This document shows, in pieces, positions 9,540 through 41,476 of a DNA stretch of 62,038 nt. Source of the DNA: a virus (Duplodnaviria; Caudoviricetes); IMG/VR virus record IMGVR_UViG_3300020207_000023, positions 1 through 62,038 of that record; one strand, given 5' to 3'. The position numbers were made by a program, and so were the translations under genes. Within the stretch, counting starts at the first letter, position 1. Every line of letters starts with the position of its first letter. Under the pieces are notes generated by a model, which was not told the origin of the DNA, did no database searches, and was given only the letters and a program-made list of their open reading frames with translations.

Positions 9540-9770
9540 CTAAGCGGTAGCTGTCGCGCCAGTGTCTACACGGATCCAGTTAGAACCATCTGAAAACACA
9601 AGGTTTCCTGTACCCGCGCCAGCCCCTTCAGCAACCTTACGAGCATTTGATACATAATAAACGTACCCTTCGTTATCGGCTGAGGCAGTTGGTAGGTCTG
9701 CAAAAAGGATTGGGTTTAGCCAGAAAGCAGTGTTTGTCTTTACTGGACCTGAAAAAGTTGTACGAGCCAT
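9540..9770 (-). CDS. Small capsid-associated protein
   Basis: MARTTFSGPV start; first gene after capsid terminator. Confidence 0.55.
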   Translation of the reverse strand: MARTTFSGPVKTNTAFWLNPILFADLPTASADNEGYVYYVSNARKVAEGAGAGTGNLVFSDGSNWIRVDTGATATA

Positions 9771-9837
9771 TTGGATCTCCTGTCGTGGCTAGTGTCAGCC
9801 GCACCATGCGACTGTCAGGGATAACATTACTTTACTC

Positions 9838-9888: not shown

Positions 9889-10797
9889 TTAAGCTCCAGG
9901 AGAACCAAACACACAACGAGGGTCTGAAACACCGAAGCTGTAACGCTCACGAGCTTTGTAGCGCACATTGCCTGTTTCAAAATCGCCTTCCATGCTGTTT
10001 TGGATTGGCGAACGAACAAAGTGCTTAAAGCCGTTTGGTGCATCCGTCTTAATGAAGAATGCGTCTGTGTCGGTCAGGAAGTGGTTAACCACATAACCGT
10101 CAGGAAGCATACCCATGTTACGGATAGCGTTGGTGTCGTTATCTGCAGTTCCAGGACGCAGATTAGTAGCCATCAAACGCTCAGCCACAAACTGGAGGTT
10201 GGTAGGAATGATCAACTTCATACCACGCAGAGCGATTTTAAGGCCGCGCTCGTCGATGAAGTTAGAGATGTCAATCAGTGACTGCTCAAGCGAAGTTTCG
10301 TTGAGATCAGCCGCAGTTGTCAGCTCATTCCGGAATGTACCACCACCTGTGGTTGGGTGATTTGTTGCACACAATTCTACACCGTCACCAATAGCGAAGT
10401 TAGAGTTAAAGGCGTTGTTAAGAACAGCCGCCGCTTTAACTTGCTTAGTATTCGCCATTGAACGAGCAAGCGCACGAGTGTAGCGTGAGCTGAGGCGGTC
10501 GTAGAGGTTATCCTCAACAGCTTCCTCAGTGATAGCAAACGCCAGTGCGATTGTTTCATGGGTGTAGCGAGATGTGAAGGCTTCGTTTGCGGTATCGTAT
10601 GATACTGCCGCACCTTCACCTTTAGTTGGAGCTTGACCGAAGCCAGCGAGCATTACCTCTTCTTCGAAAGCCCGATCAGAATTTTCGGTTTCGTAGATTT
10701 CGGCGTGTTCGTTGTCGTAACGATCGTATTCCATGCCAAACAGAGCGTTAAGTCCAGGCTCAAGCTCTTTCAGCAGTTGACTTCTAGAAATAGCCAT
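9889..10797 (-). CDS. Major capsid protein
   Basis: MAISRSQLLKELEPGLNALFG start, YKARERYSFG end; after scaffold, before strong terminator. Confidence 0.85.
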   Translation of the reverse strand: MAISRSQLLKELEPGLNALFGMEYDRYDNEHAEIYETENSDRAFEEEVMLAGFGQAPTKGEGAAVSYDTANEAFTSRYTHETIALAFAITEEAVEDNLYDRLSSRYTRALARSMANTKQVKAAAVLNNAFNSNFAIGDGVELCATNHPTTGGGTFRNELTTAADLNETSLEQSLIDISNFIDERGLKIALRGMKLIIPTNLQFVAERLMATNLRPGTADNDTNAIRNMGMLPDGYVVNHFLTDTDAFFIKTDAPNGFKHFVRSPIQNSMEGDFETGNVRYKARERYSFGVSDPRCVFGSPGA

Positions 10798-17763: not shown

Positions 17764-19236
17764 TTATCCGTAATAGATTTGTTTTCTTGGTGGACCTTCA
17801 ACATAATCGTCATAATCCTCTGGGTGCTGTATAAACCCGCCTTCGCGAAACCGTCGGAGAGCCTGTGTTACCGTGTCAACGAAATCATCATTTTCGCCAG
17901 CCGGAAACGCCGCACACTCCTCTATGACTTCTTCCGCCCATCGTGTATCTGGAGCCCATACTAACCCAGATTCAAGGAGAGGCGCAATGGAGTTTACTCT
18001 TGTGTATTTATCATTCCCTCTGGACGGGCTATAATTCTGCACCGGAATACCCATACTGCGTAACTCTTGCGTCAACGGCATACCACTCGCCTTGGCCTCA
18101 ATCAACACACATTCCGGATCCCAATAATTATATTCCTCCATTGCAATACGCCGCAACTCAGGGAAATCCCATCGGCCACGCCGCGCATCACACAGAATAA
18201 TGTTTGGTGGTTCTCCCTCCTTAGGATAAAACACACCCCATGTGGTTATAGCACTAAAATCAGCATTCGTCTGTTTACTAAACGCCGTATCATAAGACTG
18301 CATCACATAACTCAGCGGCGGGATATCTTCCTTTTCCCACTTCTGCCACCAATCACGCTTCAATATAGCACTCGTCTCAGAAGTAGGATTCTGTTGCCAC
18401 TGCGCTTCCCACTTGCCAACAGACAAAGAAGCCTTAACCTTTAACAACTCATCCTTTTTCCAAAACTCCGGCCACAAAACCTTATCATCATCCAATAACG
18501 CCGGAAACTCAACCACCTCCCACTGGTCTGCCAATACATCGCGAGCCTGTTGCTTCAACAACTTACCCGTCAAATCTATCTCGGACCATCGCGTCATCAC
18601 AATTACAATCGCTCCTCCAGGTTGCAAACGCTGGCGTGGACCAGAAGTATACCACTCATACGCATTCTCCAATGCCGCAGGGGATAACGCATCCTGCTCC
18701 GAGTGCGGATCATCAATAATCATCAAATCCGCACCACGACCAGTAATCGCTCCTCCAACACCAGCCGCAAAATATTCGCCACCAGCATGGGTCTCCCATC
18801 TACCCGCCGCACTACTATCCTGCCGCAACTTTACATCCGGAAAGACCAGAGAGTATTCGTTACTGTTCATAAGGTTACGCACCTTACGTCCAAACCTCAC
18901 CGCCAATTCACCTGTATGCGTCGCCTGAATAATCTTTAACTTAGGGTTCAATCCCATCAACCAACTCGGCAACAAATAACTGGCAAACTCCGACTTCGTA
19001 TGTCGCGGTGGCATATTCACTATCAACCGCTTAATACTGCCATCCGCCAATCCATTAAACTTCTGCGCCATCACCTTATGGTGATTCCCCTCAATAAACT
19101 CAGGCCATACCGTTTTGGTATAAGCCATAAAATCCTTCCTCGCGCGATCACTCGAAGCATACTGTCCACTCTTTTCAAGCAAACGAGCATACTGCTTCAA
19201 CACATCTTCAGGAATAGTCAATGGAGCGTCTGGCAT
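17764..19236 (-). CDS. terL: Terminase large subunit
   Basis: NMPPRHTKS Walker A, IIDDP Walker B, SYDTA and NDDFVD nuclease motifs. Confidence 0.95.
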   Translation of the reverse strand: MPDAPLTIPEDVLKQYARLLEKSGQYASSDRARKDFMAYTKTVWPEFIEGNHHKVMAQKFNGLADGSIKRLIVNMPPRHTKSEFASYLLPSWLMGLNPKLKIIQATHTGELAVRFGRKVRNLMNSNEYSLVFPDVKLRQDSSAAGRWETHAGGEYFAAGVGGAITGRGADLMIIDDPHSEQDALSPAALENAYEWYTSGPRQRLQPGGAIVIVMTRWSEIDLTGKLLKQQARDVLADQWEVVEFPALLDDDKVLWPEFWKKDELLKVKASLSVGKWEAQWQQNPTSETSAILKRDWWQKWEKEDIPPLSYVMQSYDTAFSKQTNADFSAITTWGVFYPKEGEPPNIILCDARRGRWDFPELRRIAMEEYNYWDPECVLIEAKASGMPLTQELRSMGIPVQNYSPSRGNDKYTRVNSIAPLLESGLVWAPDTRWAEEVIEECAAFPAGENDDFVDTVTQALRRFREGGFIQHPEDYDDYVEGPPRKQIYYG

Positions 19237-19448
19237 GGGTCATGTCCTACAGCCAACATCAAACAAGCAATCAAACTACATAAATCGCTCTCTTCCAAAT
19301 ATATGTAATGCGTATGCCCATCCTCATAAAACAAGGTCAAAGCTATATCGCCATCTTCACTGGTCGTAACGCCCACATATTCTGGATCTCTGTTCATGAA
19401 TTCAAAATAGTATAAAAATTTCTGAGGGGCAATGAACCTATAACTCAT
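19218..19448 (-). CDS. Small hypothetical protein overlapping terL start (start uncertain)
   Basis: ORF track only. Confidence 0.35.
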   Translation of the reverse strand: MSYRFIAPQKFLYYFEFMNRDPEYVGVTTSEDGDIALTLFYEDGHTHYIYLEESDLCSLIACLMLAVGHDPCQTLH

Positions 19449-19454
19449 ATTTCA

Positions 19455-19654
19455 AAAAAGGGGGGTGGGGGTACGCGAATAATTATCTCGGTACTAACGA
19501 TGTCGAAAGAACCGTGTATACGCCTACGCATATACACCACTCGTCTGTCAAAGGGGGGTTGGGGGTGTGGCATTTTTGCCACATAGCCTAAAACGCCGCT
19601 GGGGACCCATAGGCGGCGGTTGTGCGGCTGGCGGTAGGTAACACCGCCAGCCGC
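19455..19654. other. Non-coding hairpin and G-tract cluster, candidate genome terminus/packaging signal
   Basis: Two G-run blocks and four inverted repeats. Confidence 0.45.
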
Positions 19655-20337
19655 TAGGGGTTAGCCCATAAGCACTAGGTTGCCATAGGCTGTGCCGTAT
19701 GTGTTAGCGGTTTGTGCGCTGTAGTTAAAGCCGCCATTAAGCACAGCCGCCACAGCATTTTGGTTGGTTGCCGTGCCAGCCGCCGCATTAACATTGGCAA
19801 ACACACTAGCCGCCCAATGTTGGTGCGCCGCCTGTATTGCCGCCAATGGCACAGGCTTGCCAATGCTGGTTGGCAATTTTGTGCTAATGGCTGGCACGTT
19901 GTAAACGGTAACACCGTTGGCGGTTGTGGTTGGCACACCGTTAACGCACGCCCATAAAATAAGGCCGCGTGCGCTAATGTTGCCAGCCTTGTTTGGTTGC
20001 ATGGTGCGCCACATTGCGCCGCCGCCAAACAAAGTGCCGTTGGCAAGTGCGGCTGGCGTTAATTGCAAGCCCACATTGCCTAAACCGTTGGCCTTAATAA
20101 AGGCCGCCATTGCCGCAACGCTAACCGCGTTTTTAGCACCGTTTGCACCGTTAAAAGCCTGTGCCGCTTGTGTTGTTTTGTTAACCATTGTTAACCCCTT
20201 TTTAGTTAATGTGCGGTAGCACCATTGCCCCGCCCCTATTTTATGCCACAGGTTTAATATGTTTGTAAACCCCTTTTTTACAGTATTGCCAAAATAATTA
20301 TTAGCAACGCCGCCACACTACCAAAAACCAGCGCAAT
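19605..20337. other. 733-bp segment with no GA or TC dinucleotide
   Basis: Line-by-line reading; bounded by GA at 19604-19605 and TC at 20337-20338. Confidence 0.93.
19661..20188 (-). CDS. Asp/Glu-free protein, paralog of 20823-21272
   Basis: 175 aa with no D or E; AAGGGG RBS; motifs collinear with paralog. Confidence 0.85.
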   Translation of the reverse strand: MVNKTTQAAQAFNGANGAKNAVSVAAMAAFIKANGLGNVGLQLTPAALANGTLFGGGAMWRTMQPNKAGNISARGLILWACVNGVPTTTANGVTVYNVPAISTKLPTSIGKPVPLAAIQAAHQHWAASVFANVNAAAGTATNQNAVAAVLNGGFNYSAQTANTYGTAYGNLVLMG

Positions 20338-20340
20338 CAT
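20278..20340 (-). CDS. 20-aa hydrophobic micropeptide MIALVFGSVAALLIIILAIL
   Basis: Hand translation; ATGA overlap with upstream stop. Confidence 0.4.
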   Translation of the reverse strand: MIALVFGSVAALLIIILAIL

Positions 20341-20510
20341 TTGTGCCGCCATGCGCCAATATAGCCGACCATAAAACTGGACAGGCCAATAATAAATAGC
20401 AATGCGCTAATGTAATGGTGGAGGGTTGGGATATTAAATGTGTCCACACTGGTAAACATTAAAAAGATACCAGCCAACATTAAATAACCATAGGTAACGA
20501 TAATAAGCAT
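20337..20510 (-). CDS. 57-aa two-TM membrane protein (absent from ORF track)
   Basis: Hand translation MLIIVTYGYLMLAGIFLMF...IGAWRHK; GGGAG RBS. Confidence 0.6.
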   Translation of the reverse strand: MLIIVTYGYLMLAGIFLMFTSVDTFNIPTLHHYISALLFIIGLSSFMVGYIGAWRHK

Positions 20511-20776
20511 AGCAAACTCCCTTGTTTGTGGTTAGGGGTTTACATTGCCAGCCGCCGCCGCGTCTTGCCAGTGCAAAATTGTCACTGTGATAACATGGGA
20601 AGTCGCGTGATTTCACAAGAGTTCATGACGGTCTTTCGTATTCATATGAGTGTATACGAAAGAGAGATCGTCCAATATCCAAAGGGGACTTATCCATCTA
20701 TCTATCTTATATGCTCATGTATACCGATAAGAGATTCATCTTCGTCACTCTTTGTCAATCAATCAATCCATCAAAT

Positions 20777-20804
20777 AAAAAAAGGGCGACCCGAAGGTCG
20801 CCCT
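20777..20804 (-). terminator. Intrinsic terminator with UUCG loop
   Basis: AGGGCGACC-TTCG-GGTCGCCCT then U-tract on minus strand. Confidence 0.9.
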
Positions 20805-20822
20805 CGTTGGAGGTGGAGTGGC

Positions 20823-21272
20823 TTATGCCGGAATGACATAAAGCTCCACGAAGTTTTTGCCCCATGTCGCTTTCGCGCTGGCTGACTGTCCGCCGTTAAG
20901 AGCGTCAAGCAAAGCATGGAAGCGACGCGCCTTAATTGAGCGGTGAGCCATGTCGACATCCTGCAGGGTGACCGTTTCCTTACCGGAGTTGATCAACTGC
21001 CAGACTACCTTGCCACGCAGGACAGACTTAGGTGAACCGTCTGCGTCATACAAGGTCCGCTTGCTTTCAAAGGGGAATGGCTGTTCCGCCTTTGGGTCAA
21101 CGTCGGCTACAATGCGGACGCCTACATTATTAGGATTCCCGCCAGCGTGTTCCTGGACAAACTTAAAAATGTCCTCGGCCGTAACGCCTTCGCGCTTGCG
21201 CTCATCAGGCAGTTCATTGATGCCTGCAAAAGTGATTTCCTGAGCGACTTTTTTAGTGACTGCTTTAGCCAT
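20823..21272 (-). CDS. Hypothetical protein, normally encoded paralog of 19661-20188
   Basis: Start MAKAVTKK behind TAGAAAGGA; own terminator. Confidence 0.8.
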   Translation of the reverse strand: MAKAVTKKVAQEITFAGINELPDERKREGVTAEDIFKFVQEHAGGNPNNVGVRIVADVDPKAEQPFPFESKRTLYDADGSPKSVLRGKVVWQLINSGKETVTLQDVDMAHRSIKARRFHALLDALNGGQSASAKATWGKNFVELYVIPA

Positions 21273-21305: not shown

Positions 21306-21360
21306 CACCATTGCTGGCTACCCTTATAGAGTAGCAAATTGACCTTCCTATGTAAACCCC
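21306..21360 (-). promoter_or_regulatory. Putative promoter TTTACA-N17-TACTCT, similar to 20218-20273
   Basis: GGGGTTTACA...AGGG...GCAATGGTGCT shared by both paralog leaders. Confidence 0.55.
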
Positions 21361-21475: not shown

Positions 21476-21901
21476 TCACTCTTCGTCGCTCTTCATCAAT
21501 CTATCGAGGACCTCTGCCCATCCATCTTTGTCCCTCGGCCACTCCATCCTGTAATCGTATGTTGGATCATTATCAATCAATCTCTTTGCAAGGTAGCGTC
21601 CATCCATAAACAATAGGCTCTGGGACGAAGGATGATGAACCAAGTTCCAAACGCATCCACCAACATCAGTTCTTGAGGTCTGCCATGCTATTTGATGAGG
21701 ACGCCACTTAGGGAACTTCTTGTCGGACTTTGTCGTAAGAACCTTTAACTCTACCCAGAAGTCCTTGCCATTCGCGCAACCGTTGACGTCAGGGACGCCT
21801 GGACTCGCCCATGACTCCATCCTTACCCAATGGACGTTTAGGTGGCGTGTTCCGTCCCGTAGGGCTTTCCATAATTTAGACTCAGGTTTCGGTGTTGGCA
21901 C
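21476..21901 (-). CDS. PD-(D/E)XK nuclease (VRR-NUC/Holliday junction resolvase-like)
   Basis: PGVPDV...WVELK...PHQIAW. Confidence 0.75.
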   Translation of the reverse strand: MPTPKPESKLWKALRDGTRHLNVHWVRMESWASPGVPDVNGCANGKDFWVELKVLTTKSDKKFPKWRPHQIAWQTSRTDVGGCVWNLVHHPSSQSLLFMDGRYLAKRLIDNDPTYDYRMEWPRDKDGWAEVLDRLMKSDEE

Positions 21902-22442
21902 TTGGATGAACTTCTATTTCTTGGAAGTTCGCATCTATGGTGGGCTGGGTCGCTTCTACAAGTTGGGGGAACTCTTGCTGTATGCGCCTGATCTCTGCCA
22001 TAACCTCATTGCGATCCATCTGGTCTATCTTGCCCATGAGGATTTCCTTGCGGTCAATGTAAAGTCCTGCGGCTTGGCCTCGTGACTTTTCAGCAGTGAC
22101 AGCGGCGGCGTAGTTCCCATTCTGCAACGCTTGGTCTCTTATCTCTGCCAGCTTCTTTACATGGCTTTCAAAGGTGACTTCAAACTTGTGTTGCAGTTCA
22201 TTCTTGATATCGCGTATGCGTTCCAAAACTTGGGGGTAGTCCCGTCCGTTCAACATACGGCTTGCGATGGCGTGTGCATTGGACTCTGCGTAGCCAGCGC
22301 GAAGTGCGGCCTCAGTTTGCGTAACTTCCTCTGTTGCGTAAATCATTGCAAACTTTTCTTGCTTGGGTGTCAGCCCTACTTCCACCCGAGGGTTAGCAAC
22401 AACGTCCAGAGTATTCTTGTGTGTAACTTTCGCTTTCGGCAT
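21882..22442 (-). CDS. terS: Terminase small subunit
   Basis: LTPKQEKFA..TEAALRAGY HTH; RGQAAGLY. Confidence 0.85.
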   Translation of the reverse strand: MPKAKVTHKNTLDVVANPRVEVGLTPKQEKFAMIYATEEVTQTEAALRAGYAESNAHAIASRMLNGRDYPQVLERIRDIKNELQHKFEVTFESHVKKLAEIRDQALQNGNYAAAVTAEKSRGQAAGLYIDRKEILMGKIDQMDRNEVMAEIRRIQQEFPQLVEATQPTIDANFQEIEVHPSANTET

Positions 22443-30839: not shown

Positions 30840-31245
30840 CGAATCGCATCCTTAATTCAGCCTCAACAAGAAACAAATAACGCCGTAGGTCGCGTATATC
30901 ATCTAAAACGCCTTCCTCGCGTCTGTCTTCCTCTGCTGTTTGGAACACATCATAATTCCAGTCAGCCACTTGCTTTTCAAGCCTGTCCCATTTGCGAGCC
31001 AGCATCATAAAAGCACCAACGCCTCCGCGCTGTTTCCAACTGTTGCCATAGGATTGCTCAGATATATGCAACCCTTCAACATCCTCCATAGCCAGACCCA
31101 GCACCTTATTGATAATGGCACTGTAATCATCGGCATCTATTTCACCGTTCCTAACCAATTTAAGATACTCCTCTTCCTCTAACTCACGCATACGCCGTGT
31201 CATATAAGCCTCGTGACTTTCGTGTTTTACAAAGTTTCCATCCAT
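30799..31245 (-). CDS. Nucleotide-modification-associated (Nmad1/MazG-like) protein
   Basis: SYGNSW..ARKWDRL..LDDIRDLRRY. Confidence 0.65.
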   Translation of the reverse strand: MDGNFVKHESHEAYMTRRMRELEEEEYLKLVRNGEIDADDYSAIINKVLGLAMEDVEGLHISEQSYGNSWKQRGGVGAFMMLARKWDRLEKQVADWNYDVFQTAEEDRREEGVLDDIRDLRRYLFLVEAELRMRFGDKDDRQLELEVG

Positions 31246-32243
31246 TTGTCTTTTCTCCGTTCTAGCCATTCGTAACACGCCAAATGCCAATCATCTGGCT
31301 TTATGTCTTTAGAATGTTCCATGGCTTGGAAAATTTCTTTTGCTTTCCATGCCACCCACATTCTGTGCATAGGCTGTGCCACTTCGCTAAAAACAGAGTT
31401 AACATATGCTCTAGGTTTCTCGGGGTCTTCCATAAACCACTCAAGCTCTTCATCAAAGGTAAGTATGTCGTCAACCAATGGAGAAGGTTTAATCATGCGT
31501 GTAGCATATGAATCATAGTCAGGGGTCATTCCATCAAGCCCCTCCAACACTTCCACATAGGCGTGGAGGTTGTTGCTGAACTGTGTATAGATCCCCACCT
31601 GTGCGCCAATCCGTGCCGCAATGTATTCCTGCAGAATGGACATATGGACAGCGTTAGCTCCCAGCGCACCCCAGATCATATCATTACTGCGGTTGCATAC
31701 CGTCATGTCCAGCTTATTATCGCGAACGCTGAAATATATATGCGTATTACAGGGGTGATCTTTGCATTCATTATCCTTGCGTAAATCACCTTCAGGATCC
31801 CACATAGCTAAAACAGTTCGTCTATCGTTTTCATAGGTCATAAGTCTATGAACAGCTATGTCTAATTGGTCTTTATAGAAATAGTTACGCCATCTATAAC
31901 CATATGCACCTTGGAGGGTCTTACCATTATCACTATAAGTACCCATCCGTTTATTATAACGCTGGATCCACTCAAGGTCTTCACGACCCGCTAACATCCA
32001 GAGGCTTTCCATAAAATGGAATACAGGGTTAGCGTCGCGTTGCGGATAGAACAATACCCGCTCGCAGGGGTTATTGTAAGTAATCGCACAAGGCTCACGG
32101 AACTCAAGTGCTTTACCGTTTCGGGTGTCTACTTCAACACCGCTAGTTTCAAGTGCTTGCTTCACCAGCCATAACGCATCACTGACATTAACAGCGGTGA
32201 ATGTGTGCATACCCCTCATTGGGGCTTTGCCAAATAGTGCCAT
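31227..32243 (-). CDS. Thymidylate synthase homolog, probable dUMP hydroxymethyltransferase
   Basis: Catalytic PC (HPCN), RSND, dUMP-type Asn (GANAVH), NLHAY; clustered with 5-hmdU kinase. Confidence 0.8.
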   Translation of the reverse strand: MALFGKAPMRGMHTFTAVNVSDALWLVKQALETSGVEVDTRNGKALEFREPCAITYNNPCERVLFYPQRDANPVFHFMESLWMLAGREDLEWIQRYNKRMGTYSDNGKTLQGAYGYRWRNYFYKDQLDIAVHRLMTYENDRRTVLAMWDPEGDLRKDNECKDHPCNTHIYFSVRDNKLDMTVCNRSNDMIWGALGANAVHMSILQEYIAARIGAQVGIYTQFSNNLHAYVEVLEGLDGMTPDYDSYATRMIKPSPLVDDILTFDEELEWFMEDPEKPRAYVNSVFSEVAQPMHRMWVAWKAKEIFQAMEHSKDIKPDDWHLACYEWLERRKDKWMETL

Positions 32244-32344
32244 AATGAACCACCTTTCTATGGGGCTATAAAGCCGCTCGAGCGGCTGAGGTTAGTTTGC
32301 CCTACCCAACTACCAAAAGCAACCTTCTGGCGGCTGTATGGGGC

Positions 32345-33346
32345 TTAAATAAAGTCAAAATGCTTCTTGACACGCTTAGTGTATGTCCCTCCATTTAATG
32401 CTTCTTTAATTGCAGTTTCCGTTTCCTCTGTAGGCTCGGGTAACGTCTTGCGTCCCATGCGGTCAGGTAACAATCCATTACGAAGAGTGGTGTTGTCACA
32501 ACCGTTACAAGGACCGAAATCGCGTTGCCCATGATACAGTTTTGTTCTCGCCGCATGGAAAGCCTCCCCCTGCCAAATATCATCAATATGTGTGTCCATT
32601 ATATTGCCGCACTTATACCATCCTACCCAATCATTACAGCAGACTGCGACATTGCCATCCCATCGTATTGACATTTCGCGGAAAGGTTTAGCACAGCGTT
32701 TGCCATCTTGGTCATGGTTCAATGGAAAAGCATTTCCAGCATGGTTGCTAACTTGGGCATGAGTTCCACTTGTAGCCAATGTGAGATCCATGCCAACAAC
32801 GATATCATGCTCTGTAACTTTTCTTCTACGGTGGGGGTTTGCGGCGCGGTCGGCGGGGTATTCAAAAACGGGATGTGGACCATTGTAACGCTCCTTGATT
32901 TTATCTACGATTTTAATACGGTCGTAGTTATCAAGGAATAGAACATTTAGCCCTGCATCCATAAGTTTGTTGACCGTTTCCTCTGTGTCTTTCAACAACC
33001 CACCACCATTGCTAGTCATCATAAGCGGTGTTCTGGGTAACTCTTTACGGAACAGACCCACCATTTCAATAAAGAAAGGGTGCATAGTAGGCTCGCCGTG
33101 CATAGCAAACTCAATGCGTGGATTCCACCCTGCCCTTTTAATTTCCTGACAAATTCGGGTAGCCGTTTGAATATGCAGATTTTTGTAAGGGGCAGATGCT
33201 TTACCATGCAGATTACTCGGACCATCAGCCTCGTTTTCACGGATAGACTGTATGCCGCAAAATGAGCAAGCAAGGTTGCACCCTTCCACAAACTCTACCT
33301 GAATAGAGTTTGGTGGGTCTTGATAAAAGTTAGATTGCTCCACCAT
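32345..33346 (-). CDS. Radical SAM enzyme with SPASM/twitch domain
   Basis: CNLACSFC, HGEP, C..PF...DGNVAVCC...GNI...CNGC. Confidence 0.9.
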   Translation of the reverse strand: MVEQSNFYQDPPNSIQVEFVEGCNLACSFCGIQSIRENEADGPSNLHGKASAPYKNLHIQTATRICQEIKRAGWNPRIEFAMHGEPTMHPFFIEMVGLFRKELPRTPLMMTSNGGGLLKDTEETVNKLMDAGLNVLFLDNYDRIKIVDKIKERYNGPHPVFEYPADRAANPHRRRKVTEHDIVVGMDLTLATSGTHAQVSNHAGNAFPLNHDQDGKRCAKPFREMSIRWDGNVAVCCNDWVGWYKCGNIMDTHIDDIWQGEAFHAARTKLYHGQRDFGPCNGCDNTTLRNGLLPDRMGRKTLPEPTEETETAIKEALNGGTYTKRVKKHFDFI

Positions 33347-34115
33347 CTTTAGCGGCCTTTCTCCATTGAACACGGACATCCCACCGCGTTTTCATACCTT
33401 CCCAACCTGTTTTAGTTTCCTTTTGTAATGCTTTCACATACAACGGAAAGGCTTGTTCCAAAGCGCGGCTGGCGCGTTCTTGCAGTTCAGCATTGCGATA
33501 TGTGCTACAGCCTCCAGCCGCACCAGAAGCACCACGCTGATCCCATGTCCAATCTACAATAACCGCATTGCCGTGTCCCTTTTGGAATAGGCTGAGGGTT
33601 ACATAGTAGTCCTCCATTAACTCCATAGCATCATAGCGTATGCCTAATTGTTGGAGGATATGGGGGCGTATGGCATGGACAGCGTTTTGCCGCATCCCAT
33701 ACTTTACCCGATCTGGGTAATGTTTGTCATTCATCTGGCGTGGGCTGAGGCCAACATGGGTGAAGTTATTTAACAGCCACTCCATGCGCTCCCACAGTTC
33801 GTGCATCTCACCCTGCTCAGTTTTTCTTAGGTTAGGTGCGTCATCATGTGCGCGGCGACCAAATATAAGATCGTCATCCAAAATAATAATTTTATCATAC
33901 TCCTGCTCCACTGCGTGATCTACAATAAATTGCCGGACATTGTTTATGCCCTTGATATCACCACGGTTCAGGCAGTAACGACCATTGTTAATATGTGCTT
34001 GCACTTCTTCTTGTGGGCAAACCAGAACCGCACTTTCTCTTGCTTCCGGACCAATACTTTCCCAAGTAGTTTGCTTGTTGATCCTACCCCTTGTAGGAAT
34101 AAAAATAGGTATCAT
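33330..34115 (-). CDS. GT-A glycosyltransferase, TAGT/JGT/GREB1-like DNA-base type
   Basis: IFIPTRGR, ILDDDL, MEDY, GGCS motifs. Confidence 0.75.
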   Translation of the reverse strand: MIPIFIPTRGRINKQTTWESIGPEARESAVLVCPQEEVQAHINNGRYCLNRGDIKGINNVRQFIVDHAVEQEYDKIIILDDDLIFGRRAHDDAPNLRKTEQGEMHELWERMEWLLNNFTHVGLSPRQMNDKHYPDRVKYGMRQNAVHAIRPHILQQLGIRYDAMELMEDYYVTLSLFQKGHGNAVIVDWTWDQRGASGAAGGCSTYRNAELQERASRALEQAFPLYVKALQKETKTGWEGMKTRWDVRVQWRKAAKDGGAI

Positions 34116-34434: not shown

Positions 34435-35340
34435 CTACACCACCCCACCATTAGGAGCCTCCAACCACATTCCAACATTAGCCTGATACTTACTGCGTGG
34501 CTTGCCTTGTCCAAGGCGCACACGCTCATACTTATCCCACTCGCACAGGCTATGCTCAATAGTTCGCATATCTACTGCATCAAGGGGAACATGAGATTGA
34601 ATGTAGTTTGGTGCTTGAGCCAGTAACTCTTGCATTTCGGTATTGGCTTGGGTCTGGTTCATAGACTTAGTCAACACCCTATCGTGGATACGGTTCAGTC
34701 CTCGCTTTGCTCCCGGACCTGCGTTTGCCCAACTAAAACGGTCTTGTGCCTTGTCCAATACAGGTGTGTAGTTGAGGTCGGTAACCACTTCGTATGACAT
34801 AAAGCCTCCCCCTCCCCATCCCCGATAGGAAGCCATCGCTTTGTGGGTCGCCTCCAACGATTGCGTTTCCTCAGCGACCCCCGATAAATGCACCCTGTCT
34901 TTCCAAATAGGTTTGAGGAAGTGGTCAACAACGACCTCCGACTTACGAGCTTTGAGACCTTGATTAGTGATTATATAAGCTCCAGTGAATGTCCGCAAAC
35001 CAGAGGACAACCTAGCCTCAATAAGTTCTTTGGTATGGTCGGGATTCCATCCTTTATCTTCGTCAACCCACCCATGCTCTTCGGCAAACTCGCTTGTGCC
35101 AATCATGCGGAACAAACAACAATTAAAAACGATTTCACTGTGCGGACGGTTAGCATTTGGGTTAGTCCAGTTTTGGCGCATCCAAACAGTAACACGGTCA
35201 TTTTCACGGAAGGGGTTGGTGAACTTGTAATCCTGCAAAATGTGGTCGTCAGTCCAAGGGGGATTGACCCCCTTGGCTCGCTTTTGGTAAATAGCGTGAC
35301 GCTCATTTATCCAGTAAAAGAACCTTTCTATGTTCTCCAT
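34435..35340 (-). CDS. 5-hmdU DNA kinase (aGPT-Pplase1 family)
   Basis: ERHAI..PPWTDDHILQDYKFTN..RENDR, FTGAY, GPGAKRGL, EHSLCEWDKY. Confidence 0.85.
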   Translation of the reverse strand: MENIERFFYWINERHAIYQKRAKGVNPPWTDDHILQDYKFTNPFRENDRVTVWMRQNWTNPNANRPHSEIVFNCCLFRMIGTSEFAEEHGWVDEDKGWNPDHTKELIEARLSSGLRTFTGAYIITNQGLKARKSEVVVDHFLKPIWKDRVHLSGVAEETQSLEATHKAMASYRGWGGGGFMSYEVVTDLNYTPVLDKAQDRFSWANAGPGAKRGLNRIHDRVLTKSMNQTQANTEMQELLAQAPNYIQSHVPLDAVDMRTIEHSLCEWDKYERVRLGQGKPRSKYQANVGMWLEAPNGGVV

Positions 35341-36096: not shown

Positions 36097-37128
36097 TTAG
36101 GCGGCTTTGGCGTATTCAAGAGCCTTTGCCATAGCCTTCCGCTTGACTTGGGCATTATTGCCAAACCATGCGGAGTTAAGGGCGTGGTCACGAGTCTTGG
36201 CTCGCTTTTGGTGATCCATAACATAAGTCACACCGTTTAGCGCACCCCACCAAGTCCCCTTGGCTGAAGACATATCGTGTCCTGGAGAAGTTTCAATAGC
36301 TTCCAGTATAGACTGGGAAGTTTTGGTAAACTCCTCATGAAGCGGTGGTAAGTCGGCCTCGTTAGACTTAGCGCGTTCAATAAGCAGTTTGGGCTGGAAC
36401 AACTCAGCAATGAAGTTATCCACCTGTTCCTTAGTAGCTCGTTGCTTGGCAAGGAACTCGGACTGCTGTTGGAACTGTGTCATTTGCTCACCACTAATAC
36501 CAAGTGCTGTTTCAGCGGCTTGCATAATTTCCTCGTCAAACATTTGCAAATGCAACACGCGGAACTTACCAGTCATACCCTCTTGGCTGAGCGCAAGGGT
36601 AATCGTATTGTTACACACCACACGGATGGGGGTGAACATAACAGTCATAGCAGTGCCAACCTTGTGACTGTTAGCCATGAGCAAGTAACCCTCGATCTCA
36701 TCGCCACCCGCTAACTTGAAGCCTTTCTTGATTTTAGCCAAGCCCCAAATGCGCTCGCCATCACTTAGGCTACCCGCCGTGTCCATTTCCATATGCCCTG
36801 CTTCAGTAAACTTTTTGAAGAATGACATTGTTTCGTGGTTCTGGAATGGAACAAACCCTTCACCGCAGTGCGATAGCACACGGTTATCGGTATCACGCAC
36901 CACTACATAATGGTCGTTAGCCCGAAGCATTTCGGCTTCACCGCGTGGGTCATTGAGGTTCCAAGTGTTAGGCTTGTCAGCGTAATAGACAGGCCGCTTG
37001 CTAACTGTCCAGTCAAGGCCAGCCGCTTTAAGCATTTCCTCAGGAGTAAGGTTATGCTCAACTTTTTCACCAAGCCCATGCCAAGGAACTTGTCCTGCAT
37101 AAGCCATTGTTTCTACCATATGTGCCAT
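36097..37128 (-). CDS. DUF932/DUF945 family phage protein
   Basis: PWHGLG..AGLDW, TPIRVVCNNT, GTWWGALNGVT. Confidence 0.85.
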   Translation of the reverse strand: MAHMVETMAYAGQVPWHGLGEKVEHNLTPEEMLKAAGLDWTVSKRPVYYADKPNTWNLNDPRGEAEMLRANDHYVVVRDTDNRVLSHCGEGFVPFQNHETMSFFKKFTEAGHMEMDTAGSLSDGERIWGLAKIKKGFKLAGGDEIEGYLLMANSHKVGTAMTVMFTPIRVVCNNTITLALSQEGMTGKFRVLHLQMFDEEIMQAAETALGISGEQMTQFQQQSEFLAKQRATKEQVDNFIAELFQPKLLIERAKSNEADLPPLHEEFTKTSQSILEAIETSPGHDMSSAKGTWWGALNGVTYVMDHQKRAKTRDHALNSAWFGNNAQVKRKAMAKALEYAKAA

Positions 37129-37515: not shown

Positions 37516-39033
37516 TCACGCAGGAATTTGATAACCACGGCTGAACATGGGATGCACCAAATGTAAATGTTGTAGAGCGCGAGTAAGACCCACATAAAAC
37601 ACGCGAGCTTCATCAAAATGTTCGTTTTCAAACTTACGCCACATAGAATAGGAACGACGCATAGTGTCAGTGAGAACCATAACATTATCTGCTTGAGCTC
37701 CCTTTGCTGAGTGAATCGTTGAGATTCGGATGCGAGGCTCTTGTGTTAAGGATTCACCTTTGCGTAGACAGGCTTTAATGTAACGCTTATCTTTATCCGA
37801 TATTTTGCCCAACCCTTCATCCCAAGGGAGGCTGTGTAGTAATCCGTGGAAGTCCAGCAGATCTTGTAATCCATAACGCTGGTCTGGCTGTCCTTTACTA
37901 AAGGTTTTGTGTCCATACTCAACCTGTGTGCCTAACAACATCTGGCTATAAACAGTTCGCACCTGTTCAGCCGTTAGCATACCACCATCGCGTAGGTTTT
38001 CCCAAAGCCTAACTGATTCAAGAACTTTACCATCAATTGATTTACTGCCATTGTAGATATATAAATGTCCACGGCGGCGCACTTCTTCCTCAATCTGCTT
38101 TGCACCTCGTGTAGTGCGGCTGAGTAACAGCCAGTCACCTTCGGACATATTAACTTCTTCGGAGTGACGATGCCAATGGACAAACCCATCCTCATCCCGT
38201 GGGTTGAATTGTTTGGGTCTGCGATCAACGACGCGCTGAATTACTTTTTGGCTAAGTGCATGATGCAGGGCGGGTATCCTGTAACTTTGGTTCAGCACAG
38301 TGACACTGCCTTCAAGTCCTATGAAGTAGTCTACATCTGCACCCGCATAACGGAATATGGCTTGGTCGTCATCGCCAGCTACAAACATCTCTTTGCAGTT
38401 GGCTTGTAATAGATGTACCATTTTCCACTGCAATGGTGACAGGTCTTGCGCCTCATCAATGAACACCACCTCCAGTTTCGGTGCTAACTGACGGTAACAA
38501 AACTGCTCTAGCATATCTGTGTAGTCGAACAGTTGGTATCTATCCTTCCATGCCTTTAACCCCCTGTCTACGTAATCAACCCTAGCCCAGTCGGTTTTAA
38601 GCGGCACTGTAGAGGCATTGTAAACGCCACGCAGAGGCTGTTGCTGTATGCGAGCTATGTTAATCAGCTCAAGGAATTTATCGCCGTATCCAAAATCTTT
38701 ATACGGACCTTGGTCGGTGAGTCCTGAATTAAAGAAACCACCGATTTTTAACCAATCACCAATTTCAGTAAACTTATCCGATGTGAGAATTTGGTTATGG
38801 TTAATGCCCATCTGCATAAAGGCAAGGCTGTGAAGGGTGCGGAAGAAAGGTAAGTCGCGCCTGTGCAGTTTAAACTTTTCACAAGCACGGTCTATAGCTT
38901 CACTAGCGGCACGGCGAGTAAAGCCAAAGTAACCTATACGATCTGGTGCGACACCTTTGCTAAGATACTCTTCGACCTTGTTTAGGAGGTAGGTTGTTTT
39001 CCCTGTTCCTGGAGGTCCGAGTATAATATTCAT
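37516..39033 (-). CDS. UvrD/Rep-like SF1 helicase
   Basis: GPPGTGKT, IDEAQD, GDDDQAI, TIHSAKG, YVGLTRA. Confidence 0.92.
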   Translation of the reverse strand: MNIILGPPGTGKTTYLLNKVEEYLSKGVAPDRIGYFGFTRRAASEAIDRACEKFKLHRRDLPFFRTLHSLAFMQMGINHNQILTSDKFTEIGDWLKIGGFFNSGLTDQGPYKDFGYGDKFLELINIARIQQQPLRGVYNASTVPLKTDWARVDYVDRGLKAWKDRYQLFDYTDMLEQFCYRQLAPKLEVVFIDEAQDLSPLQWKMVHLLQANCKEMFVAGDDDQAIFRYAGADVDYFIGLEGSVTVLNQSYRIPALHHALSQKVIQRVVDRRPKQFNPRDEDGFVHWHRHSEEVNMSEGDWLLLSRTTRGAKQIEEEVRRRGHLYIYNGSKSIDGKVLESVRLWENLRDGGMLTAEQVRTVYSQMLLGTQVEYGHKTFSKGQPDQRYGLQDLLDFHGLLHSLPWDEGLGKISDKDKRYIKACLRKGESLTQEPRIRISTIHSAKGAQADNVMVLTDTMRRSYSMWRKFENEHFDEARVFYVGLTRALQHLHLVHPMFSRGYQIPA

Positions 39034-40664: not shown

Positions 40665-41474
40665 TTAGAACGGCACATCGTCATCATCTTGCTGTGACTG
40701 TTGTGCAGGGGCTTGAGTTTGCTCTGGGGCTTGCTCTTTAACCTCTACCTCACCAGACTTAACAGACTTAGCGAACGCGACTGCCATTTCAAACACGGCT
40801 TTATCACCAGCATTAGAAAGGTCAATCGGACCGACTTTGTTAATGTCCCAGCCAAACCAATTACCTTTATCATTGCTTTCAGCAACGGTAGACAGTTGGT
40901 ATTTGTGTGACATCATTGGCAAAGTGTACGGACCGTTTTTGCCTTCTGCTGTAAGTGACTGCATTTGTGTAACCCACTTGCGAGCTTTCTTCAGCTGTGT
41001 GCTAGACATAGTAATCAAGCAACGCTGTGGACCATCTTCATCAAGCAGGATTACAAAGAACTGAGCGGTGTTGGTCAGGATATTGCCGTTAGGCAGGATA
41101 TCTTCACCGCGCTCATTTTTAGTGGTAGTGTTAACGATAGCATCGTCAGGCTGGTAAGAACCATAATATCCACCGCCCTTTTCACGCGGAGCCCACTCAA
41201 CATAACGGCGATTGTAATAGCACGGCACAACCGCGATACCCTTTTCACCATCGTATGCTTTATTGGCTACAGTATTAAAGATCATGCCAGCTTCAGCACC
41301 CTCAACATACGCACCATCACGCTTATTAACCTGTGGGCTAAGTTGTGCAAGGATACGCAGAAAGGGGATAGCCATATCCTCTGAACTGGTTTCCTCAAAA
41401 CCCAGACCACCAAGGTCTTCGAACTGTGCTACTGCAAGAGCAGTGGCTTCCTTTTTTGCTACTTCAGTTGCCAT
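40665..41474 (-). CDS. Putative single-stranded DNA-binding protein
   Basis: IPFLRILAQLSPQV motif; acidic DDDDVPF tail. Confidence 0.65.
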   Translation of the reverse strand: MATEVAKKEATALAVAQFEDLGGLGFEETSSEDMAIPFLRILAQLSPQVNKRDGAYVEGAEAGMIFNTVANKAYDGEKGIAVVPCYYNRRYVEWAPREKGGGYYGSYQPDDAIVNTTTKNERGEDILPNGNILTNTAQFFVILLDEDGPQRCLITMSSTQLKKARKWVTQMQSLTAEGKNGPYTLPMMSHKYQLSTVAESNDKGNWFGWDINKVGPIDLSNAGDKAVFEMAVAFAKSVKSGEVEVKEQAPEQTQAPAQQSQQDDDDVPF

Positions 41475-41476
41475 AT

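What the first reader, a model, noticed from the sequence alone, without database searches (positions are those of the whole stretch)
19605..20337. 733 bp with no GA and no TC dinucleotide
Seen: between GA at 19604-19605 and TC at 20337-20338 neither dinucleotide occurs, so 5'-TC-3' (equivalently GA) is absent from both strands; 19550-19603 is also free. About 90 would be expected at equal base frequencies. All four bases are common, the reversed dinucleotides AG and CT are present, and the rest of the genome uses GA/TC freely. The ban covers coding and non-coding DNA (leader, RBS, gene, downstream hairpin), so selection acts on the DNA or RNA itself. Inference: the segment must remain free of a TC/GA-context mark or lesion, either the phage's own T hypermodification or a host activity (GA/TC-containing restriction sites, DarT-type TNTC ADP-ribosylation, DddA-type TC deamination).
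Basis: seen in the sequence. Interest (0 to 1): 0.97.

Follow-up and report, generated by a model that had tools for sequence, protein, structure and literature searches.

The report
Phage gene purged of GA and TC
One complete small gene of a marine phage that chemically modifies its own thymines has been rewritten so that it contains no GA and no TC at all (and so no aspartate or glutamate), probably so that this one gene escapes the modification and stays readable, while a normally written sister copy sits next door.

Summary
Window 19605-20337 has no GA or TC; the next-longest such gap is 65 bp.

It is one self-contained minus-strand transcription unit: promoter, hairpin leader, GGGG ribosome site, 175-codon ORF, TAA stop, hairpin terminator.

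The ORF encodes a real, fast-evolving protein of unknown fold under purifying selection, with dN/dS of 0.04-0.16. It is a diverged tandem paralog of the normally coded neighbour at 20823-21272.

The purge is conserved. 46 of 67 homologous IMG/VR loci (35-99% aa identity) have zero GA/TC where 38-62 are expected.

It is strand-specific. Sense GA (template-strand TC) is 0-2 in all 53 distinct ORFs. Sense TC is relaxed in some lineages, fully in one.

Every near-complete genome of the clade carries a 5-hmdU thymidine-hypermodification cluster. Published work implicates T followed by C or G as the target context.

Best reading (about 0.5): the unit carries no modifiable T, so host RNA polymerase can read it from fully hypermodified DNA. 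Main rival (about 0.25): the mRNA is immune to GA- and UC-cutting RNases.

I found nothing like it in print.

The parts
19605..20337 (.). GA/TC-free island of 733 bp. A further free stretch at 19550-19603 is separated from it by a single GA at 19604.
20264..20273 (-). GGGGTTTACA motif holding the putative -35 hexamer TTTACA (20264-20269). It is conserved about 70-90 nt upstream of the start codon in the homologous loci.
   Evidence: The promoter function is inferred from the sequence pattern only.
20240..20245 (-). Putative -10 hexamer CATAAA, 18 nt after the -35. Relatives have TATAAT-like hexamers at 16-19 nt.
   Evidence: One search's stricter scan did not list it, because it lacks T at position 6.
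20213..20233 (-). Leader (5'UTR) hairpin with a CAAUGGUG-type loop region. A similar hairpin stands in the leader of paralog A.
   Evidence: whole 52-nt leader -12.6 kcal/mol, z -2.0.
20195..20200 (-). Ribosome-binding site of the AAGGGG type, which avoids the usual GGAG.
19661..20188 (-). ORF B: 175 aa, no Asp or Glu, pI 10.2, TAA stop. It belongs to a conserved protein family of unknown fold.
19624..19654 (-). 13-bp G+C-rich hairpin directly after the stop codon, a putative terminator or 3' stabiliser. Low-GC relatives have a hairpin followed by a U run here.
   Evidence: -30.7 kcal/mol, z -4.1.
19566..19583 (-). Second short hairpin (TGTGGCA...TGCCACA), lying in the 19550-19603 free stretch.
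19553..19565 (-). C-run (CCCCAACCCCCC) followed by a GA-rich stretch. This is the conserved downstream limit of the GA-free zone in nearly all loci.
20278..20340 (-). Mini-ORF of 20 hydrophobic residues between the 57-aa membrane ORF and the B promoter. It lies inside the free zone apart from its ATGA start overlap, and equivalents exist in several lineages.
   Evidence: Whether it is expressed is unknown.
20823..21272 (-). Paralog A: 149 aa from the second ATG (the ORF runs to 21311). It has normal coding, with 19 Asp+Glu and GA 5.6 and TC 5.8 per 100 nt. It is homologous to B.
   Evidence: BLASTP E 2e-10 to the remote B-family member P0051; hhalign probability 80.8%, E 1.3e-5, 127 columns.
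21351..21360 (-). A second exact GGGGTTTACA motif, the putative promoter of paralog A. Its surroundings do contain GA and TC.
20782..20805 (-). Intrinsic terminator of paralog A: 10-bp stem followed by a T run.
34435..35340 (-). 5-hmdU DNA kinase (5-HMUDK), the core of the thymidine-hypermodification cluster.
   Evidence: PF18723, E 1.7e-51.
31227..34115 (-). Rest of the modification cluster: thymidylate-synthase-like dUMP hydroxymethylase (31227-32243), radical SAM/SPASM enzyme (32345-33379), glycosyltransferase-like protein (33330-34115).

Best explanation
The island is one complete transcription unit on the minus strand: a sigma-70-like promoter, hairpin leader, GGGG ribosome site, 175-codon ORF 'B', TAA stop and hairpin terminator. 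It has been recoded so that the template strand carries no 5'-TC-3', which means no GA in the message. In most lineages the coding strand carries none either.

B is a diverged tandem duplicate of the normally coded neighbour 'A'. Removing GA cost B every Asp and Glu codon.

The phage replaces T by 5-hydroxymethyl-dU and then hypermodifies part of it on the DNA through a 5-hmdU DNA kinase pathway. I infer that in this clade the modified T is the one followed by C. The B unit then holds no modifiable T and stays chemically plain while the rest of the genome becomes bulky.

Bulky 5-substituents on T impair bacterial RNA polymerase. B would therefore be the one gene the host polymerase can read freely from fully modified DNA, meaning the infecting genome and late, mature DNA. 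A and the other genes would be read best from freshly replicated hmU DNA.

Shown here: the purge, its conservation, the strand hierarchy, the unit's limits, the paralogy, and the presence of the cluster.

Inferred: TC as the modification context in this phage, the effect on the polymerase, and the timing. What the A/B protein does is unknown.
For: 1. One cause explains both absences. GA and TC are reverse complements, so 'no TC on either strand' is a single rule.

2. The purge is conserved over deep divergence.
- 46 of 67 IMG/VR loci have 0 GA/TC in the homolog and 6 have 1-2, against 38-62 expected.
- Remoter B types in L088-L090 and L093 are purged too.
- Strictly purged pairs have dS of 0.23-0.76 without gaining one site, and dN/dS is 0.04-0.16 in 17 of the 18 pairs computed.

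3. The template strand is the stricter one. Sense GA is 0-2 in all 53 distinct ORFs. The rare GAs are Asp/Glu codons or, once, a codon junction, never a synonymous NGA codon.

4. The limits follow a transcription unit.

5. The modification cluster is in the window. 5-HMUDK is found in 11 of 27 related records, including 3 of 3 that are at least 90% complete, and in G028. The four named relatives that lack the kinase also lack A and B.

6. Literature.
- Resistant restriction sites in M6, ViI and phi W-14 share TG or TC, pointing to the kinase's preference (PMC6449724, passages).
- 5-hmdU is converted 'in sequence-specific contexts' (PMC8989533, passages).
- E. coli polymerase transcribes an hmU template at about 350%. 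After 5-HMUDK phosphorylation this falls to 37% of natural DNA (PMC6457204, passages).
- Bulky major-groove groups block bacterial polymerases (PMC4838386, abstract).

7. Genome-wide hint that TC/GA sites are shielded.
- Over six genomes, palindromic hexamers with TC/GA have a median O/E of 0.81-0.87, and none is below 0.3.
- Those without TC/GA have a median of 0.61-0.64, and 12 of 44 are below 0.3 (MWU p 0.003-0.004, Fisher p 0.026).
- There is no such difference among non-palindromes (p 0.86) or in four relatives without the kinase (p 0.8).

8. A normally coded paralog with the same promoter motif sits beside B, as expected for a modification-sensitive and modification-proof pair.
Against: - No modification data exist for this phage, so TC as the context is inferred.
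- TG/CA, the other published context, is abundant in the island.
- The coding (non-template) strand is purged just as absolutely in most lineages (37 of 53 ORFs have 0 TC). Lesions on the non-template strand normally hinder polymerase little.
- In one lineage (L054/55/58) that constraint vanished completely, with TC 29 against 28 expected, while the template constraint stayed. That looks like two separable constraints.
- Sense TC is tolerated in the promoter spacer of lineages that allow none in the transcript.
- The other genes, including early ones, carry more template-strand TC than coding-strand TC: 6.1 against 4.1 per 100 nt. Modification therefore cannot block transcription outright.
- TCGA (O/E 0.42) and GGWCC-containing words are avoided although they contain TC/GA.
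- All genomes with the island belong to one clade, so co-occurrence with the kinase is one evolutionary event.
- The first 50 kb of two other kinase-bearing phages, PhiJL001 and YuA, show no such island.
- Relaxed and strict genomes share the same cluster genes.
Confidence: 0.5

Rival explanations
1. RNA-level immunity. The B message is kept free of GA, and in most hosts of UC, so that endoribonucleases with those dinucleotide preferences cannot cut it. Candidates are host abortive-infection or CRISPR-associated HEPN-type RNases, or a phage host-shutoff RNase. B would be an RNase-proof copy of A that can still be made when other messages are destroyed.
For: - The two constraints behave independently. 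GA is never relaxed, while UC is relaxed partly or fully in separate lineages. That fits two agents.
- Zero tolerance along the transcript, including the coding strand, is natural if one cut kills the message.
- UC is allowed just upstream of the -10 but not downstream of it.
- The purge spans the leader to the 3' hairpins, which is the region a stable message needs.
- B evolves fast (36-53% identity where terL is 71-89%), as arms-race proteins do.
- Recalled, from no call: Cas13b orthologs are reported to have GA or UC collateral preferences, and ACA-free messages escape MazF.
Against: - The two avoided dinucleotides would be reverse complements of each other by coincidence, roughly 1 in 15.
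- The match to the published TS context of 5-hmdU modification would be a second coincidence.
- The free zone usually runs well upstream of the promoter. The median distance to the nearest GA is 66 nt and to the nearest TC 76 nt before the -35 motif, against 19 and 26 expected. In several lineages it covers an upstream mini-ORF.
- Stable hairpin stems, which single-strand RNases would spare, are purged too.
- No RNase was recognised among the 36 window ORFs scanned. Most ORFs of the window were not scanned.
- No gene shared by strict genomes is missing from the UC-relaxed genomes.
Confidence: 0.25
2. A host enzyme that acts on DNA at TC threatens the gene, and B is purged to stay intact or error-free. 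Candidates are a DddA/APOBEC-like cytosine deaminase, a DarT-like thymidine ADP-ribosyltransferase, or a nuclease or glycosylase that recognises the phage's modified T.
For: - A single TC rule explains both absences.
- A template-strand lesion or C-to-U change corrupts or blocks the transcript, whereas a coding-strand one does not. This could give the observed hierarchy.
- Nucleases that target hypermodified phage DNA have been described (PMC12191111, search listing only).
Against: - No such host factor is known for these uncultured phages.
- Protecting one gene does not save a genome that is damaged everywhere else.
- DarT motifs are longer than TC (recalled).
- The limits follow the transcription unit, not a DNA fragment.
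- It offers no explanation for the link with the clade's own modification cluster.
Confidence: 0.1
3. The island is a DNA recognition region that must stay unmodified for protein binding, such as a pac site for the small terminase or an origin. The ORF would be incidental.
For: It lies between terS and terL, where pac sites often lie (the pac location is recalled knowledge).
Against: - The strand asymmetry.
- The limits match promoter to terminator.
- The ORF is under strong purifying selection, folds confidently and has a paralog.
- DNA sequence within the island diverges freely at synonymous sites (dS up to about 0.9), which a binding site would not allow.
Confidence: 0.03
4. The island is a relic of local hypermutation, for example TC-to-TT editing on both strands, and is not maintained by selection.
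For: AA and TT are somewhat enriched in the island.
Against: - The island has more G+C (52%) than the window (46%).
- The ORF is intact with dN/dS of 0.04-0.16.
- The purge is kept across lineages with large synonymous divergence, and down to 35% protein identity.
Confidence: 0.01

Closest known systems
Thymidine-hypermodifying phages (M6/YuA-like, ViI, phi W-14, SP10; 5-hmdU DNA kinase pathway)
   Same: The same enzyme set is present: dUMP hydroxymethylase-like thymidylate synthase, 5-HMUDK, and radical SAM and transferase tailoring genes. Published modification is partial and context-dependent, with T before G or C proposed.
   Different: No modification-free gene or dinucleotide-free stretch is described in the passages I read. 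I found none in the first 50 kb of YuA or PhiJL001. This clade is uncultured, and its modified base and context are unknown.
Restriction-site (palindrome) avoidance in phage genomes
   Same: It is also selection against short words because of what acts on the nucleic acid. These genomes show strong classical avoidance too, for example GCTAGC 0 observed against 52.6 expected.
   Different: Classical avoidance is genome-wide, concerns 4-8-bp sites and is statistical. Here a dinucleotide is removed absolutely from one transcription unit only, in a strand-specific way, at the price of two amino acids.
Cleavage-site-free messages (ACA-less mRNAs that escape MazF; recalled, with the toxin review PMC5408214 seen only in the listing)
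   Same: A whole message lacks a short word, so it would survive a sequence-specific RNase. The limits coincide with a transcript.
   Different: No cognate RNase is known here. Two words that are reverse complements are avoided. The purge often extends upstream of the promoter.
Artificial transcription switch on 5-hmU DNA (Vanikova et al. 2019, PMC6457204)
   Same: hmU templates are transcribed well by bacterial polymerase, and further derivatisation by 5-HMUDK turns them down. That is the effect the proposed mechanism relies on.
   Different: That work is an in vitro demonstration on fully substituted templates. A natural gene built to be exempt from the switch has not been reported there.

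Membership tests
Thymidine-hypermodifying phage (5-hmdU pathway) | dUMP hydroxymethylase of the thymidylate-synthase family | tested here: met
   Window 31227-32243(-): PF00303 E 1.4e-19; phrog_5131 thymidylate synthase E 1.8e-105. Hydroxymethylase rather than methylase activity is inferred from context.
Thymidine-hypermodifying phage (5-hmdU pathway) | 5-hmdU DNA kinase | tested here: met
   Window 34435-35340(-): PF18723 E 1.7e-51 over 274 of 281 positions. Homologs at 35-38% identity occur in YuA-like, PaMx11 and other phages.
Thymidine-hypermodifying phage (5-hmdU pathway) | Tailoring enzymes next to the kinase | tested here: met
   Radical SAM/SPASM enzyme at 32345-33379 and a glycosyltransferase-like protein at 33330-34115 (PF20691, phrog_842).
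Thymidine-hypermodifying phage (5-hmdU pathway) | Hypermodified T actually present in virion DNA, and its sequence context | not testable with these tools
The only indirect hint is the palindrome statistics.
Restriction-site avoidance | Avoided words are recognition-site-like (palindromic, 4-8 bp) and depleted across the genome | tested here: not met
   The avoided word is a dinucleotide, is absent only from one 733-bp unit, and is used freely elsewhere (6,356 occurrences in the window). There is one island per genome in six genomes.
Cleavage-site-free mRNA (toxin or RNase escape) | The word is absent from the transcribed strand over the transcript only | tested here: inconclusive
   UC is tolerated in the promoter spacer but not in the transcript, which supports this. 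However, the free zone mostly extends 45-280 nt upstream of the -35 motif, and hairpin stems are purged too.
Cleavage-site-free mRNA (toxin or RNase escape) | A cognate RNase with that specificity in the host or phage | not tested
   The host is unknown. No RNase was recognised among the 36 window ORFs scanned; most ORFs of the window were not scanned.
Deaminase hypermutation footprint | Loss of TC with gain of TT/AA, a drop in G+C, and decay of coding capacity | tested here: not met
   The island's G+C is 52% against 46% for the window. dN/dS is 0.04-0.16.
Known protein family for ORF B or paralog A | A significant match to a curated family or a solved or predicted fold | tested here: not met
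   - Pfam and PHROGs: 0 families for both proteins.
- GenBank phages by tblastn: no match.
- Foldseek against PDB and BFVD: no hit with E <= 0.001.
- ESM Atlas: no usable hit.

The most novel reading that the evidence does not exclude
In this phage clade, hypermodification of T in the TC context doubles as a genome-wide transcription throttle. B is the single exempt gene, an 'ignition' or 'always-on' copy read from the incoming, fully modified chromosome. Its normally coded twin A is read only from young, unmodified DNA. Together the pair would be a natural expression switch that senses the epigenetic state of DNA. The cost of building it shows in a protein that evolved to fold and work with no acidic residue at all.
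Probability: 0.3. Interest if true: 0.95.

Novelty: categorically new. Interest (0 to 1): 0.9.

Why it matters
If the leading reading holds:
- It would be the first natural example of a gene written to be invisible to its own genome's DNA modification.
- It would be direct evidence that phage hypermodification shapes transcription, not only protection from nucleases.
- It would read out the sequence specificity of an uncultured phage's modification system from sequence alone.

If the RNA reading holds, it would point to dinucleotide-specific RNases as a major selective force in marine phage-host systems. It would also mark B as a likely counter-defence protein.

Either way:
- The locus is a clean natural experiment, with strict, partly relaxed and fully relaxed lineages and a normally coded paralog.
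- It shows that a folded protein family (AlphaFold pTM 0.81) can be maintained for a long time with no Asp or Glu.
- A dinucleotide-gap scan could become a cheap way to find modification or cleavage contexts in metagenomic viruses.

Tried and rejected
**Searches for relatives and names**
- DNA and protein searches of the island against GenBank phages found nothing. The same was true for paralog A.
- Pfam and PHROGs gave no family for B or A.
- Rfam found nothing in 19000-20700 at E <= 1.
- The four named terL relatives (HTVC027P, HTVC023P, 023Pt_psg01, DSL-LC04) have no island within 8 kb of terL. They also lack the kinase, B and A. For the empty answers the tool itself warns that 'nothing rang' is not proof of absence.

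**Search for a gene that explains the relaxed lineages**
- I compared the window's 93 ORFs by tblastn against five whole contigs. No gene is present in all strict genomes and absent from both relaxed ones.
- The comparison was one-directional as printed. Genes present only in relaxed genomes were not examined.

**Fold and similarity searches**

**Generality**
- The first 50 kb of PhiJL001 (of 63.6 kb) and of YuA (of 58.7 kb) have no comparable gap for any of the 16 dinucleotides. The remaining parts were not scanned.

**Remote members**
- P0049 and P0051 gave no IMG/VR locus.
- P0051 gave none in the metagenome set.

**Literature**
- Searches for a precedent found none.
- Supplementary tables of PMC6449724, which hold the per-enzyme restriction results, were not open and may bear on the TC versus TG question.

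**Readings rejected**
- Translation or tRNA-level causes: out-of-frame and non-coding sites are purged too.
- Chance long ORF: rejected because of family conservation, dN/dS and the confident fold.
- Assembly artefact: rejected because many independent contigs agree.

- The search of earlier findings, the look-up of sequencing runs and complex prediction.
- Expression data and an A-B binding test could therefore not be obtained.
- I made no claim about A-B binding.
Full report
**1. The observation**

The window is a complete 62,038-bp phage record.
- Between GA at 19604 and TC at 20337 there is no GA and no TC. The next-longest such gap is 65 bp.
- A further 56-bp free stretch lies just to the left.
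- None of the other nine strand-symmetric dinucleotide classes has a gap longer than 205 bp. At the window's own GA/TC rate (0.102 per position) about 75 occurrences are expected.
- All four bases and all 14 other dinucleotides are present.
- Resampling synonymous codons for the same protein gives 12.8 GA and 17.7 TC on average, and never fewer than 5 and 8 in 2000 draws.

**2. What lies there**

Nearly all genes run on the minus strand. In transcription order the neighbourhood reads as follows:
- small terminase (21882-22442)
- a VRR-NUC-like nuclease (21476-21901)
- a 149/162-aa ORF 'A' (20823-21272/21311)
- a 57-aa membrane ORF (20337-20510)
- a 20-residue hydrophobic mini-ORF (20278-20340)
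- the island ORF 'B' (19661-20188)
- a 76-aa ORF
- large terminase (17764-19236) and portal

Comparing 28 representative loci shows a conserved anatomy around B:
- a GGGGTTTACA motif (window 20264-20273) followed after 16-19 nt by a TATAAT-like hexamer
- a leader hairpin
- an AAGGGG-type ribosome site instead of GGAG
- the ORF, always ending in TAA or TAG
- a strong hairpin (window 19624-19654, -30.7 kcal/mol, z -4.1), carrying a U run in low-GC relatives
- a second small hairpin or palindrome
- a C-run
- a GA-rich stretch that ends the free zone

The island is therefore one self-contained transcription unit. The promoter and terminator roles are inferred from sequence alone.

**3. B is a real protein**
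- A search of 5.8 billion proteins found 29 relatives. A profile search of 1.84 billion representatives found only 24, so the family is narrow.
- Alignments show 16-26 invariant columns.
- AlphaFold2 gives pLDDT 81 and pTM 0.81.
- In 17 of the 18 pairs computed, dN/dS is 0.04-0.16. dS is 0.23-0.76 in the 11 pairs where both members carry at most one sense TC, and up to 1.3 in pairs that include a TC-relaxed member. The 18th pair is saturated. One further pair was skipped because the lengths differ.
- No family, fold or language-model neighbour was found.
- B has no Asp or Glu and a pI of 10.2. Even the remotest relatives have at most one acidic residue.
- Across five related genomes B is 36-53% identical where terL is 71-89% identical. 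It evolves quickly in sequence while staying purged.

**4. The purge is conserved**

IMG/VR holds 67 loci with a B homolog at 35-99% identity. Counted over the tblastn match in each locus, where 38-62 GA/TC are expected:
- 46 of 67 loci have zero GA/TC, with gaps of 620-970 bp
- 6 have one or two
- 15 have 9-29

A more remote type (L088-L090) has a 760-bp gap with the same anatomy.

The remotest type recovered is L093, which sits directly upstream of a terL. It has a single GA in about 700 nt. That GA is an Asp codon, and the Asp is shared by the remote B relatives; it lines up with the Asp of the conserved LLDALNGG motif of A. This looks like an intermediate stage of the recoding. It also shows that one site can be tolerated.

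Each of six whole genomes has exactly one island.

**5. The constraint is strand-specific**

Among 53 distinct ORFs:
- Sense GA is 0 in 42, 1 in 9 and 2 in 2, against a background of 22-41.
- Sense TC is 0 in 37 and 1-2 in 5.
- Sense TC is 8-10 in one group (L013, L018-22) and 10-17 in another (L036/37/50).
- Sense TC is 27-28 in L054/55/58, or 29-30 with refined start codons. That equals the synonymous expectation of 28.

In the TC-relaxed lineages the rare GAs are all Asp/Glu codons; the one GA in the near-strict L051 lies at a codon junction, and none is a synonymous NGA codon.

The universal rule is therefore 'no GA in the message', which is the same as 'no TC in the template strand'. The coding-strand rule is common but dispensable.

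Relaxation is recent in places. L013 differs from the strict L010 by a dS of only 0.26 yet has 8 TC.

Sense TC also occurs in the promoter spacer, or just before the -10, in three promoter families. These include lineages with no TC in the transcript.

On the other hand the free zone usually extends well upstream of the -35 motif. The median distance to the nearest GA is 66 nt and to the nearest TC 76 nt, against 19 and 26 expected, with a minimum of 17.

**6. A tandem paralog**

The neighbour A has the only other exact GGGGTTTACA on the coding strand (21351-21360), a similar leader hairpin and a clean intrinsic terminator.
- A matches the remote B-family member P0051 over its whole length (BLASTP E 2e-10, 28% identity).
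- A 21-sequence profile of A matches the 29-sequence profile of B over 127 columns (hhalign probability 80.8%, E 1.3e-5).
- The order of predicted secondary-structure elements agrees.
- A is coded normally: 19 Asp+Glu, and GA 5.6 and TC 5.8 per 100 nt.
- A is 59-71% identical across the five related genomes.
- The order terS, (nuclease and A), B, terL holds in all six genomes.

The phage thus keeps two copies of one protein family side by side, one ordinary and one purged.

**7. The modification link**

The window carries the following cluster:
- a thymidylate-synthase-like enzyme
- a radical SAM/SPASM enzyme
- a glycosyltransferase-like protein
- a 5-hmdU DNA kinase
- an HD-type nucleotidase beside the family-A polymerase

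The kinase is found in 11 of 27 related records, including all 3 that are at least 90% complete, in both strict and TC-relaxed genomes, and in G028. The 16 records without it are fragments, at most 73% complete.

The four named relatives have no kinase, no B and no A. This is consistent with a link but amounts to a single clade, not independent events.

From the literature:
- Passages of PMC8989533 state that 5-hmdU is converted in sequence-specific contexts.
- Passages of PMC6449724 report that restriction-resistant sites of M6, ViI and phi W-14 share TG or TC, and propose that the kinase prefers these.
- Passages of PMC6457204 report 350% transcription from hmU templates by E. coli polymerase. 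After kinase treatment this falls to 37% of natural DNA.
- The abstract of PMC4838386 reports that bulky major-groove groups block bacterial polymerases, probably at initiation.

As an indirect genome-wide test I compared palindromic hexamers over six genomes:
- The 16 with TC/GA have a median O/E of 0.81-0.87, and none is below 0.3.
- The 44 without have a median of 0.61-0.64, and 12 are below 0.3. Examples are GCTAGC at 0 observed against 52.6 expected and GTGCAC at 0 against 56.1.
- The tests give MWU p 0.003-0.004 and Fisher p 0.026.
- Non-palindromic hexamers show no difference (p 0.86). Neither do the 17-kb loci of the four kinase-less relatives (p 0.8).
- Grouping by TG/CA, TA or TT/AA shows nothing.

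This fits TC/GA-containing sites being shielded from restriction. Against it, TCGA has an O/E of 0.42 and GGWCC-containing words are avoided. The effect is also carried mainly by G000 and G004.

**8. Weighing the explanations**

Any model tied to plain double-stranded DNA fails on the strand asymmetry and on limits that follow a transcript. This covers a pac site, a nuclease-proof fragment and general restriction avoidance.

Two transcription-bound models remain.

The DNA model says there is no modifiable T for the polymerase to meet. In its favour:
- It explains with one rule why the two avoided words are reverse complements.
- It explains why that word is of the published T-before-C/G kind.
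- It explains why the zone tends to extend upstream of the promoter.
- It explains why a purged and an ordinary paralog coexist.

It strains to explain the absolute purge of the coding strand and its clean loss in one lineage.

The RNA model says there is no site for GA- and UC-cutting RNases. It explains those two points naturally. However, it needs two coincidences and an unknown RNase.

I put the DNA-modification reading at about 0.5, the RNA reading at about 0.25, a host TC-directed DNA enzyme at about 0.1, and the rest on other or unknown causes.

The function of the A/B protein is open. Its position, own promoter and fast evolution suggest an early or continuously needed host-interaction factor, but that is inference.

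**9. Novelty**

Three full-text searches and the passages I read gave no report of any of the following:
- a dinucleotide-free gene
- a modification-exempt gene in a hypermodified phage
- an acid-free recoded paralog

The finding rests on sequence statistics that are very strong. The mechanism is not yet shown.

Noticed in passing
window 19450-19565 (-), and the equivalent place in L006-L072, L088-L090 and L093: Directly after the island there is a conserved non-coding block. It holds a C-run (19553-19565), a GA-rich stretch, a 10-bp hairpin (19514-19537) and a second C-run followed by Ts (19460-19471). It is kept in loci whose B proteins are only 35-50% identical, and may be a regulatory or processing site ahead of terL.
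   Followed up: partly
window 9768-9820 (-): Rfam match to the Mu-gpT-DE RNA motif (74.6 bits against a gathering score of 49). It lies just downstream of the most conserved structural gene (9889-10797, 86-93% identical in relatives), probably the major capsid gene.
   Followed up: no
whole window and five related genomes (G004, G008, G009, G013, G015): Some palindromic hexamers are avoided to an extreme degree. GCTAGC is 0 observed against 52.6 expected, GTGCAC 0 against 56.1, GCATGC 1 against 39.5, TGCGCA 1 against 37.0 and GGTACC 2 against 40.3. CCGG and GGCC have O/E of 0.26 and 0.33. The avoidance is much weaker in the TC-relaxed genomes G008 and G009.
   Followed up: partly
L054, L063, L066, L070 (about 10 nt before the start codon): In these lineages the ribosome site is ACGGAGT. 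The only GA of the whole unit is then the Shine-Dalgarno GGAG, which suggests that one site can be afforded where it pays.
   Followed up: no
window 20278-20340 (-); L007, L023, L034, L036/37/41 upstream of the B promoter: A tiny ORF for a hydrophobic peptide of about 20 residues recurs between the membrane ORF and the B promoter. In strict lineages it is GA/TC-free as well, and in the relaxed L036/L037 it is not.
   Followed up: partly
window 42608-44044 (+): An SNF2-family helicase (PF00176, E 7e-22) is the one large gene on the plus strand, opposite to the rest of the genome.
   Followed up: no
window 40665-42022 (-) and 39033-40547 (-): Homologs of Pam3 phage gp33/gp34 (PF23984, PF23977) sit next to an archaeo-eukaryotic-type primase (PF22548). 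A DUF932 protein lies at 36097-37128.
   Followed up: no
protein P0021: This 131-aa database member follows the family for about 100 residues and then ends in an unrelated tail. It is probably a chimeric or adapter-contaminated short contig (745 bp).
   Followed up: no
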